DNA of 48,989 nucleotides. It comes from a virus (lineage: Duplodnaviria; Heunggongvirae; Uroviricota; Caudoviricetes). The stretch lies in IMG/VR virus record IMGVR_UViG_2541047945_000011. One strand, 5' to 3'. Position numbers and translations under genes: made by a program. A model generated the notes under the pieces. The model was not told the origin of the DNA and searched no databases. It saw only the letters and a program-made list of their open reading frames with translations. Shown piece by piece: positions 35,439 through 36,302 of the stretch. Every line of letters starts with the position of its first letter. Position 1 is the first letter of the stretch.

Positions 35439-35954
35439 TCATCGTAAAACATCCTCCACGCTTATCAGTCCATTTCGTTTCAGGTAATCTATCGCCTTCT
35501 CCGGTAATTTGCAGTCCGGCTGAGCTTTTTTCAGTTGACTGACCAGTCGTTTAACCCACATTGTTAATTCGCTAACCTGATTGCCGGATGCTGGTGGATT
35601 GTCGGCTTTACCCAGAATGGCAGCGCAGCAGGCCTCTCTGAGCACCCAGTCAACAGCATCCTTCCATGCTCCTGTTTCGACTGGCGGATTCTCACGCTTT
35701 ACCTGTTCATAAAAGCGCACGGCTTTAACCAGTCCTTCTGATGTCACCGGGACTGGCGGGCCGATGAATAAGGCCTGAATTTCATAGTTCGGCCTGTCGT
35801 TACAATCCTCTTTTGTCGGTACATATTTCCAGTCACCAGCCCACGGCTTCCCCTGAAAGTCTGTAACGTCTTTTTTCACGTAGCGATATCGCCATGCAAC
35901 TGGTTTTGCCTGCCCTGCCGTTTCATGCCCTTCCTGATAATTAATCTCGCTCAT
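35439..35954 (-). CDS. Hypothetical protein (171 aa)
   Basis: ATG at 35954 overlaps the upstream stop (ATGA). Confidence 0.5.
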   Translation of the reverse strand: MSEINYQEGHETAGQAKPVAWRYRYVKKDVTDFQGKPWAGDWKYVPTKEDCNDRPNYEIQALFIGPPVPVTSEGLVKAVRFYEQVKRENPPVETGAWKDAVDWVLREACCAAILGKADNPPASGNQVSELTMWVKRLVSQLKKAQPDCKLPEKAIDYLKRNGLISVEDVLR

Positions 35955-36127
35955 TCATCGCCCCACTCATCACAATATGCTTCGACCGGAGTTTTTCCTG
36001 CTTCATAATCATCACGCCATGCTTCAGCATCAGCAGCACTGCCACCACGTAACTCTGCATAGTCCATTAACAGTTCATGCCATGCTTCAAAACTGACGTT
36101 GTATTTAGTTGAACCAAAATCAGCCAT
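35951..36127 (-). CDS. Small highly acidic protein (58 aa)
   Basis: Translation MADFGSTKYNVSFEAWHELLMDYAELRGGSAADAEAWRDDYEAGKTPVEAYCDEWGDE; coupled to neighbours. Confidence 0.45.
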   Translation of the reverse strand: MADFGSTKYNVSFEAWHELLMDYAELRGGSAADAEAWRDDYEAGKTPVEAYCDEWGDE

Positions 36128-36302
36128 TTTGCTCTTCCTCTTCGTCTTTTATTTCGTGATGTGAGTAATTGCAGTAGTTAAAGAAAATATCTTTTGCTTC
36201 GTCATGTATTTCATCAGGCGTCGCATCATCATCCACTTCGAATTCATCCTCGAAATCTCCACCGGCTATTTCCGTTTCAATAATTATTTTAAACTTTCGC
36301 AT
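36120..36302 (-). CDS. Small highly acidic protein (60 aa)
   Basis: MRKFKIIIETEIAGGDFEDEFEVDDDATPDEIHDEAKDIFFNYCNYSHHEIKDEEEEQNG. Confidence 0.45.
   Translation of the reverse strand: MRKFKIIIETEIAGGDFEDEFEVDDDATPDEIHDEAKDIFFNYCNYSHHEIKDEEEEQNG

What the first reader, a model, noticed from the sequence alone, without database searches (positions are those of the whole stretch)
35951..36302. Two adjacent, very acidic small proteins (58 and 60 aa) in the early nin-like operon
Both are dominated by Asp/Glu (e.g. ...DFEDEFEVDDDATPDEIHDEAKD...DEEEEQNG) and are tightly coupled to neighbouring genes. Small highly acidic early phage proteins are frequently DNA mimics or inhibitors of host defence nucleases (Ocr/ArdA-like logic). 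These are candidate anti-restriction or anti-defence factors.
Basis: inference. Interest (0 to 1): 0.5.

Follow-up and report, generated by a model that had tools for sequence, protein, structure and literature searches.

The report
Two small acidic prophage proteins
Two overlapping genes in an E. coli lambda-like prophage encode real, conserved, very acidic 58- and 60-residue proteins of unknown function; they look like phage inhibitors of a host DNA-handling enzyme, but nothing found here shows that they block host defence.

Summary
On the minus strand, a 60-aa ORF (36120-36302, "B60", net charge -16) overlaps a 58-aa ORF (35951-36127, "A58", net -11) by 8 nt. A58 overlaps the next gene by 4 nt (ATGA). 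Both lie between the replication genes and the Q antiterminator.

Both are genuine genes. B60 belongs to Pfam DUF7167 / phrog_1997, and A58 to phrog_519. The pair occurs in 1,907 of 5,426 complete E. coli genomes. In 79 of 80 related viral contigs the same 8-nt junction is kept while the flanking genes vary.

Elsewhere the two families occur separately. A58 relatives are in Ackermannviridae and P2-like prophages. B60 relatives are in Klebsiella Guernseyvirinae and Enterococcus Brockvirinae. Acidity is conserved position by position.

Predicted folds are a beta-beta-alpha-beta unit with an acidic tail (B60) and a three-helix bundle (A58). No structural or sequence match is significant. B60's weak matches include T7 Gp2, T4 Dmd and some anti-CRISPRs, but it lacks Gp2's binding arginines.

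There is no homology to Ocr, ArdA, Gam or any defence-related family. The anti-defence or DNA-mimic idea remains plausible and untested. Interest is modest.

The parts
36120..36302 (-). B60: 60-aa acidic protein (net -16), member of Pfam DUF7167 / phrog_1997. Predicted beta(2-9)-beta(16-23)-alpha(29-40)-beta(46-51) fold with a low-confidence acidic C-terminal tail (KDEEEEQNG).
   Evidence: ORF and composition. Family hits. Homologues. Model with pLDDT 76.5. The TAA directly before the ATG fixes the start.
35951..36127 (-). A58: 58-aa acidic protein (net -11), member of phrog_519 with no Pfam family. Predicted three-helix bundle (H13-26, H34-42, H47-55). Conserved residues: W16, L20, A24, W37, D40 and G44 are invariant; the K45-T46-P47 turn and D53-E54-W55-G56 are nearly invariant.
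   Evidence: Model with pLDDT 88.9.
36120..36127 (-). 8-nt overlap (ATGGCTGA) between the B60 stop and the A58 start, implying translational coupling. The junction is conserved in 79 of 80 related IMG/VR loci.
35951..35954 (-). ATGA overlap between the A58 stop and the start of the downstream 171-aa gene (35439-35954, phrog_660, no Pfam hit). This downstream partner differs between prophages.
36303..36331 (-). Leader of B60: AGGAG (36331-36327), then a 7-bp GC-rich hairpin with a GAAA loop (36326-36309), then 6 nt, then the ATG. There is no U-run, so it is not an intrinsic terminator. It may be a 'split' Shine-Dalgarno arrangement in which the hairpin brings AGGAG to within working distance of the start codon.
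   Evidence: Sequence. RNA fold. No terminator-like site. The functional reading is inference.

Best explanation
Shown: B60 and A58 are two unrelated, independently evolving small proteins that E. coli lambdoid prophages carry as a fixed, translationally coupled two-gene accessory cassette. The cassette sits on the PR-operon strand between the replication genes and Q, with no promoter or terminator of its own detected, so delayed-early co-transcription is likely.

Inferred: each acts as a stoichiometric protein inhibitor. It would use a conserved, strongly negative surface (in B60 also a flexible acidic tail) to occupy a basic, nucleic-acid-binding groove of a host enzyme and compete with DNA or RNA. 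This is how T7 Gp2, gp5.9, Ocr and several anti-CRISPRs work. The most likely targets are a host nuclease or DNA-processing complex, such as a restriction or other defence nuclease, or RecBCD.

Both proteins are highly acidic, so they probably do not bind each other. They more likely hit two sites or two targets.

The genes, folds, conservation and linkage rest on tool results. The target and the inhibitory mechanism are inference.
For: - Both are real, conserved coding genes.
- The acidic character is conserved at specific columns across distant phages. Family net charges are -7 to -16 and -6 to -14, including Enterococcus, Klebsiella and Ackermannviridae members.
- The cassette behaves as a mobile unit. 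The same Ea22 / Zn-ribbon / B60 / A58 block lies in the int-exo region of Stx phage ArgO145 and in the nin-like region here. In 80 of 80 IMG/VR loci A58 lies directly after B60, while there are at least 12 upstream and 7 downstream neighbour types. The pair is present in 35% of complete E. coli genomes.
- In the hhalign register, B60's E9, D34, E35 and D38 fall on 4 of the 7 'negatively charged strip' residues of Gp2 (strip defined in PMC3778932).
- B60 relatives lie in early or accessory regions next to Dam or Mom/N6-N4 methyltransferases, NADAR, Erf-SSB, a DUF2800/PD-(D/E)XK exonuclease, or SNF2 helicases.
- A58 relatives lie at the end of the P2 early operon beside the defence hotspot, and after YqaJ-SSB.
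- From general knowledge, known RecBCD inhibitors also sit beside phage recombination or exonuclease genes (lambda gam-bet-exo; T7 5.9-6).
Against: - There is no detectable homology to any characterised inhibitor or anti-defence family.
- No fold match is significant. B60's neighbour list is equally populated by ferredoxin-like, ACT and RAM half-domains, and BFVD returns only uncharacterised small phage proteins.
- The hhalign comparison with Gp2 gives P = 0.05 and probability 1%.
- The neighbourhoods are generic early-gene clusters, so guilt by association is weak.
- The two families occur apart in most other phages, so the pairing may be only genetic linkage.
- Acidic small proteins can have many other roles.
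- The B60 model has only moderate confidence (pLDDT 76.5, pTM 0.56).
Confidence: 0.35

Rival explanations
1. Classical DNA mimics of the Ocr/ArdA type. One or both proteins imitate a stretch of B-DNA and titrate type I restriction-modification or BREX enzymes.
For: pI is about 4 and D+E is 26-35%. Acidic columns are conserved. B60 relatives are near orphan methyltransferases, which are another anti-restriction device.
Against: There are no Ocr, ArdA, ArdB/KlcA, Ral or Lar profile hits and no PDB sequence or fold match to any DNA mimic above noise. The predicted folds are compact single domains of about 60 aa. From general knowledge, Ocr and ArdA are elongated dimers that mimic 20 bp or more. 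Oligomeric state could not be modelled here.
Confidence: 0.12
2. Modulators of phage development or host physiology rather than of defence. They would resemble the small lambda and Stx-phage exo-xis proteins (Orf60a, Orf61, Orf63, Orf73, Ea8.5, Ea22), which bias the lysis-lysogeny decision by binding host regulators.
For: In ArgO145 the cassette lies inside the exo-xis-type region, flanked by two Ead/Ea22-like genes. In the window it follows an Ead/Ea22-like gene. Small proteins of that region have reported developmental effects (PMC7093339, PMC8614690, PMC10869804).
Against: tblastn listed no lambda record among the hits shown, and the profile search of PDB chains returned no Orf63 or Ea8.5 entry. 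A58 is also conserved in strictly virulent Ackermannviridae, and B60 in virulent Guernseyvirinae and Brockvirinae, where there is no lysogeny decision.
Confidence: 0.22
3. Accessory subunits or regulators of the phage's own replication and recombination machinery. For example, B60's acidic tail might dock onto a phage nuclease, helicase or SSB, as the acidic tails of T7 gp2.5 and SSB do.
For: B60 relatives overlap or abut a DUF2800/PD-(D/E)XK exonuclease in two Guernseyvirinae phages. They also overlap or abut SNF2 helicases in three unrelated contigs. A58 relatives directly follow P2 gpA and YqaJ-SSB. The acidic tail is conserved in character across the family.
Against: In E. coli prophages the cassette has no constant nuclease or helicase neighbour, and its flanks vary. 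The same B60 family accompanies very different replication systems, which suits a host target better than a phage partner.
Confidence: 0.15
4. B60 is a divergent T7 Gp2-type inhibitor of host RNA polymerase.
Against: R56 and R58, invariant in Gp2 and required for binding the beta' jaw (PMC3778932; invariant in alignment A4), have no conserved counterpart in the B60 family. The homology statistics are not significant. The A2 profile does not retrieve Gp2 from the PDB, and Foldseek against BFVD does not return a named Gp2. From general knowledge, a lambdoid phage depends on host RNA polymerase throughout its cycle.
Confidence: 0.05
5. The ORFs are chance or decaying reading frames without function.
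For: In the Rac-type segment of strain 442/2, the B60 homologue has an ATA in place of the start codon and an internal stop.
Against: Homologues of the same length occur at 40-60% identity in unrelated phage families. Profile hits are strong. Differences between the window and L020 are biased to third codon positions, with pN/pS of 0.15 for B60. The models are confident, especially for A58.
Confidence: 0.02

Closest known systems
T7 Gp2 (64-aa inhibitor of E. coli RNA polymerase; PDB 2wnm, 2lmc)
   Different: Homology is not significant (hhalign P 0.05, probability 1%). The jaw-binding arginines R56 and R58 are absent. B60 is far more acidic (net -16 against -5), has an extra hairpin segment and has an acidic tail. 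It is carried by temperate phages that need host RNA polymerase.
DNA-mimic anti-restriction proteins Ocr (T7 gp0.3) and ArdA
   Same: Early-expressed, very acidic (pI about 4) phage or mobile-element proteins. The proposed logic is the same: compete with DNA on a host enzyme.
   Different: There is no sequence, profile or fold similarity. B60 and A58 are compact domains of 58-60 aa. From general knowledge, Ocr and ArdA are elongated dimers of 117-165-aa subunits.
Small RecBCD inhibitors encoded beside phage recombination genes (lambda Gam, T7 gp5.9, P22 Abc2)
   Same: Small early proteins; from general knowledge, gp5.9 is a 52-aa acidic DNA mimic. Some B60 and A58 relatives sit next to exonuclease, Erf, SSB or YqaJ genes. 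The recombination locus of lambdoid phages is described as an anti-defence hotspot (bioRxiv 10.64898/2026.07.10.737580).
   Different: There is no sequence similarity to Gam or Abc2 profiles. HK446 gp33 and Oad2, translated, have different sequences, and the B60 and A58 family profiles scored no hit at either gene in the HK446 locus. In the window the cassette is not adjacent to recombination genes.
Small proteins of the lambda / Stx-phage exo-xis region (Orf60a, Orf61, Orf63, Orf73, Ea8.5, Ea22)
   Same: Same size class and the same kind of genomic region. In ArgO145 the cassette lies between Ead/Ea22-like genes, between int and exo. These are non-essential accessory early genes.
   Different: Homology searches listed no lambda hit and no exo-xis protein in the PDB. 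Unlike those proteins, both families are also conserved in virulent phages.
T4 Dmd and small anti-CRISPRs (AcrIIC3, AcrIC9, AcrIE2)
   Different: The scores are at noise level for a 60-residue alpha/beta unit, and there is no sequence relationship. The only link of phrog_519 (A58) to anti-CRISPRs is a marginal machine-learning score in Kuttervirus (PaCRISPR 0.54, threshold 0.5; PMC9409062).

Membership tests
Pfam DUF7167 (PF23768) / phrog_1997 | Profile match above the curated threshold over the full domain | tested here: met
   B60: 46 bits against a cut-off of 24.4, residues 2-53 on profile positions 1-60; phrog_1997 E 2.3e-29. RefSeq names the identical protein 'DUF7167 family protein'.
phrog_519 | Profile match | tested here: met
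   A58: E 2e-22, residues 1-58 on profile positions 76-137 of 143. There is no Pfam, NCBIfam or PADLOC family.
Ocr / ArdA DNA-mimic anti-restriction proteins | Sequence or profile membership in the Ocr or ArdA families | tested here: not met
   No such Pfam hit at E <= 0.1. No PDB sequence hit.
Ocr / ArdA DNA-mimic anti-restriction proteins | Strongly acidic protein with conserved surface carboxylates | tested here: met
   Net -16 and -11, pI about 4.1. 11 and 8 alignment columns are at least 80% D/E.
Ocr / ArdA DNA-mimic anti-restriction proteins | Elongated (dimeric) shape with carboxylates spaced like B-DNA phosphates | not testable with these tools
   Only monomer models are available, without coordinates or electrostatics. 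The predicted folds are compact single domains.
Ocr / ArdA DNA-mimic anti-restriction proteins | Binds and inhibits type I R-M (or BREX) enzymes | not testable with these tools
   Needs plating or binding experiments.
T7 Gp2 RNA polymerase inhibitors | Beta-beta-alpha-beta fold of about 60 aa | tested here: inconclusive
T7 Gp2 RNA polymerase inhibitors | Detectable sequence or profile homology | tested here: not met
   hhalign of A2 against a 7-member Gp2 alignment gives P/E 0.051 and probability 1.06%. The A2 profile does not retrieve Gp2 from the PDB at E <= 10.
T7 Gp2 RNA polymerase inhibitors | Invariant R56 and R58 on strand 3, which bind the beta' jaw | tested here: not met
   Both are invariant in the Gp2 alignment and required for binding (PMC3778932). 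The B60 family has no conserved Arg after E50.
RecBCD inhibitors (Gam, Abc2, gp5.9) | Homology to a known inhibitor family | tested here: not met
   No Pfam or PDB hit.
RecBCD inhibitors (Gam, Abc2, gp5.9) | Gene located beside phage exonuclease or recombinase genes | tested here: inconclusive
   True for B60 relatives in Guernseyvirinae and one Erf-SSB prophage, and for one A58 relative after YqaJ-SSB. Not true in the window or in most E. coli prophages.
Anti-CRISPR proteins | Demonstrated or homology-based link to a validated Acr | not tested
   The only link is a marginal machine-learning score for Kuttervirus phrog_519 members in the literature (PMC9409062). No aca gene or Acr homology was seen.

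The most novel reading that the evidence does not exclude
DUF7167 (B60) is a very distant, arginine-less relative or convergent analogue of the T7 Gp2 fold. It would define a widespread class of acidic 'channel-plug' inhibitors found in phages of both Gram-negative and Gram-positive hosts. A58 would be a second, unrelated inhibitor conserved from lambdoid prophages to virulent Ackermannviridae. Together they would form a mobile dual counter-defence cassette, carried by a third of E. coli genomes, that disarms a conserved host nuclease such as RecBCD or a restriction or abortive-infection nuclease.
Probability: 0.2. Interest if true: 0.6.

Novelty: new member of a known kind. Interest (0 to 1): 0.3.

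Why it matters
If either protein inhibits a host defence or repair nuclease, it would add one or two new, very compact inhibitor families. These would be relevant in three ways:
- They are extremely common in E. coli prophages, including Stx-converting phages.
- They are conserved in phage groups such as Kuttervirus (Ackermannviridae) and Enterococcus Brockvirinae, some of which are studied for phage therapy (PMC9409062).
- They could be used as small tools to switch off the target enzyme.

If they are not inhibitors, they remain two of the many uncharacterised small accessory proteins of lambdoid phages, and the finding is ordinary.

Tried and rejected
- **Sequence searches against solved structures.** Single sequences and family profiles gave nothing significant. 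The weak uL23, AnkX and formyltransferase hits to B60 share only a generic 'FEV..AT..EI' strand-to-helix motif.
- **Family libraries.** NCBIfam and PADLOC gave no hits for either protein.
- **Deep HMMER search with A58.** It found only 58 clusters, all short stand-alone proteins. The few longer ones look like frameshift or chimeric gene calls, so there are no informative domain fusions.
- **Gp2 homology.** Tested by profile-profile alignment and by the defining arginines; rejected as a membership claim.
- **'Exonuclease' neighbour in Enterococcus phages.** This is a DUF3850/ASCH protein, so that apparent association was an annotation artefact.
- **HK446 Gp33 and Oad2.** These are a recently reported OLD trigger and OLD inhibitor from the lambdoid recombination locus. 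The family profiles found no hit at either gene.
- **Literature searches.** Searches by DUF number, PHROG number, protein accession and the gene names on the Rac record found no functional study. One apparent phrog_519 hit (PMC11370258) appears to be a prefix match to phrog_5197.
- **IMG/VR scan with the B60 alignment.** It returned only close E. coli relatives, which was useful for linkage statistics but not for diversity.
- **dN/dS on close relatives.** There were too few substitutions for A58 to be informative.

Full report
**What is there**

The window is an E. coli lambda-like prophage. Tail, head and lysis genes lie on the minus strand. An integrase lies next to tRNA-Ser at the right end.

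The finding covers two ORFs on the minus strand, named here after their lengths.
- B60 is 36120-36302: 60 aa, 35% D+E, net charge -16, pI 4.08.
- A58 is 35951-36127: 58 aa, 26% D+E, net charge -11, pI 4.06.

B60's stop and A58's start overlap by 8 nt (ATGGCTGA). A58's stop and the start of a 171-aa gene overlap by 4 nt (ATGA). A TAA codon immediately precedes the B60 ATG, which fixes its start. The 87-aa versions annotated in some genomes read through that position. Of 191 ORFs of at least 50 aa in the window, these two are the most acidic.

On the same strand, in order of transcription, lie:
- a DnaT-domain replication gene and a lambda-P-like replication gene;
- DUF1627, DUF977 (Ren-like), DUF4406 and Ead/Ea22-like genes;
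- a 118-aa zinc-ribbon gene;
- B60, A58 and the 171-aa gene;
- hokD/rem, a DUF968 gene, rusA and the Q antiterminator.

No promoter-like or terminator-like site lies on that strand nearby.

**They are real genes in catalogued but uncharacterised families**

B60 matches Pfam DUF7167 (46 bits, cut-off 24.4) and phrog_1997. A58 matches phrog_519 and has no Pfam family. Neither hits NCBIfam, PADLOC or any PDB sequence.

The 352-bp segment occurs in 1,907 of 5,426 complete E. coli genomes, and 1,749 of those carry at least 80% of it. RefSeq annotates both genes in an identical copy.

I found no paper that mentions DUF7167 or the protein accessions. The only literature link is a marginal machine-learning 'anti-CRISPR' score for Kuttervirus phrog_519 members: PaCRISPR 0.54 against a threshold of 0.5 (PMC9409062).

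**A fixed cassette in E. coli, separate families elsewhere**

In Stx phage ArgO145 the block Ea22-like / zinc-ribbon / B60 / A58 lies in the int-to-exo region of the leftward operon. That is a different genomic compartment from the one in the window.

In 80 of 80 close B60 loci from IMG/VR, A58 follows directly, and in 79 the junction is the same 8-nt overlap. The genes on either side fall into at least 12 upstream and 7 downstream types.

Outside this group the families travel alone.
- A58 relatives (45-59% identity) are in about 180 Ackermannviridae genomes, a few genes after the major capsid gene. They are also in Enterobacter phage Arya, in P2-like Salmonella prophages directly after replication gene A, and in a prophage after YqaJ-SSB.
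- B60 relatives (40-66% identity) are in a Klebsiella lambdoid phage and in Klebsiella Guernseyvirinae, where they overlap the start of a 454-aa DUF2800/PD-(D/E)XK exonuclease.
- They are also in Enterococcus Brockvirinae, and in prophages and contigs next to Dam, Mom or N6/N4 methyltransferases, NADAR, Erf-SSB, SNF2 helicases, or xis/int.

In a Pectobacterium prophage the A58 homologue is preceded by a different 57-aa acidic ORF, again with an 8-nt overlap. That ORF is the best sub-threshold hit of the B60 profile (E 0.18).

**Conservation of charge**

Net charge ranges from -7 to -16 across the B60 alignment and from -6 to -14 across the A58 alignment. The Enterococcus, Klebsiella and Ackermannviridae members lie within or near these ranges.

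Eleven B60 columns are at least 80% D/E: E9, D19, E22, D24-26, E31, E35, D38, E50 and E55. Eight A58 columns are at least 80% D/E: position 15, D33, E35, D39, D40, E42, D53 and E54. So the acidity is positional, not compositional drift.

A58 also has invariant W16, L20, A24, W37, D40 and G44, and a conserved K-T-P turn.

**Structures**

AlphaFold2 with family alignments gives two different folds.
- B60: beta(2-9)-beta(16-23)-alpha(29-40)-beta(46-51) plus a low-confidence acidic tail (pLDDT 76.5, pTM 0.56).
- A58: a three-helix bundle (pLDDT 88.9).

I tested the Gp2 lead directly. A profile-profile alignment of the B60 family with seven Gp2 homologues puts strands and helix in register but gives P 0.05 and probability 1%. 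The jaw-binding residues R56 and R58, invariant in Gp2 and required for binding (PMC3778932), have no counterpart in B60. In that register four of Gp2's seven acidic-strip positions are acidic in B60. B60 may therefore work like Gp2, but it is not a demonstrable member of that family.

**Interpretation**

The best-supported reading is that these are two independent small inhibitor-type accessory proteins. Each would use a conserved negative surface to occupy a basic nucleic-acid-binding site of a host enzyme. Because both are so acidic, they are unlikely to form a complex with each other (inference).

The target is unknown. A defence nuclease or RecBCD is the most attractive candidate, for three reasons:
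- the accessory-region contexts;
- the neighbouring methyltransferase, NADAR and recombination genes in relatives;
- the well-known placement of RecBCD inhibitors next to phage recombination genes. Recent work also describes the lambdoid recombination locus as an anti-defence hotspot.

All of this is circumstantial, and I put it at about 0.35.

The rivals are:
- developmental or host-physiology modulators like the exo-xis proteins, weakened by conservation in virulent phages;
- regulators of the phage's own nuclease, helicase or SSB;
- a classical Ocr/ArdA-type mimic, for which there is no similarity and the proteins are too small;
- a Gp2-type RNA polymerase inhibitor, for which a defining feature is absent;
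- non-functional ORFs, which is excluded.

**Verdict**

The anti-defence or DNA-mimic interpretation is a reasonable, untested hypothesis that my searches neither strengthened decisively nor refuted. The finding is a sound candidate for a simple plating and binding screen, but not a surprise. Interest is 0.3.

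Noticed in passing
window 36303-36331 (minus strand): Between an AGGAG and the B60 start codon lies a 7-bp GC hairpin with a GAAA loop and no U-run. With the hairpin folded, the Shine-Dalgarno sequence sits about 6 nt from the ATG. This may be a 'split' ribosome-binding site, as I recall for some T4 genes. In other prophages a T-to-G change turns the TAA before the ATG into GAA, and gene callers then extend the ORF to 87 aa.
   Followed up: partly
L038 4835-5008 (Pectobacterium aroidearum prophage): A 57-aa acidic ORF (VKTITITIEVEVPDTATATDIADF...) sits immediately upstream of an A58 homologue (72% identical) with the same 8-nt overlap. It is the best sub-threshold hit of the B60 profile (E 0.18). 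It may be a truncated or very divergent DUF7167 relative, which would mean the pairing is older than E. coli prophages.
   Followed up: partly
L020 4100-4333 (Rac-type segment of E. coli 442/2, MN652886): The B60 homologue here has ATA in place of the start codon and an internal stop, while the adjacent A58 homologue is intact. The two genes can decay independently in a cryptic prophage.
   Followed up: no
window 27192-27437 (minus strand): This is the third most acidic ORF of the window: 81 aa, 22% D+E ([23 protein letters not shown]...). It lies just downstream of a 658-aa ORF (27794-29770), on the lysis-gene side. It was not examined.
   Followed up: no
window 37188-37553 and 37481-37888 (minus strand): Upstream of the cassette are a DUF4406 gene (nucleoside 2-deoxyribosyltransferase-like, phrog_355) and a DUF977 gene that PHROGs labels 'Ren-like exclusion protein'. 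These are further accessory genes of the same operon.
   Followed up: no
window 44195-46669 (plus strand): The leftward operon carries an 824-aa 'exodeoxyribonuclease VIII'-type ORF whose C-terminus looks like a DEDDh (ExoX/RNase T-like) exonuclease. I saw no obvious recT, bet or gam in the ORF list. Whether this prophage lacks a known RecBCD inhibitor was not settled.
   Followed up: partly
window 36120-36302: The window's B60 differs from the common E. coli allele at two conserved positions: E11 where the family has G or P, and H48 where it usually has Y. An identical copy of the pair exists in E. coli 266917_2 (NZ_CP026723).
   Followed up: no
L005 3471-4013 and L012 2513-3013 (Enterococcus Brockvirinae): The gene annotated 'exonuclease' upstream of the B60 homologue is a DUF3850/ASCH-domain protein, so the GenBank product name appears to be wrong.
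   Followed up: yes
L036 5868-7085 (Salmonella P2-like prophage): An nSTAND1/AAA_16 NTPase, of the kind found in some anti-phage systems, lies two or three small ORFs downstream of the A58 homologue at the end of the P2 early operon. This region is described as the P2 immunity hotspot (bioRxiv 10.64898/2026.07.10.737580).
   Followed up: no
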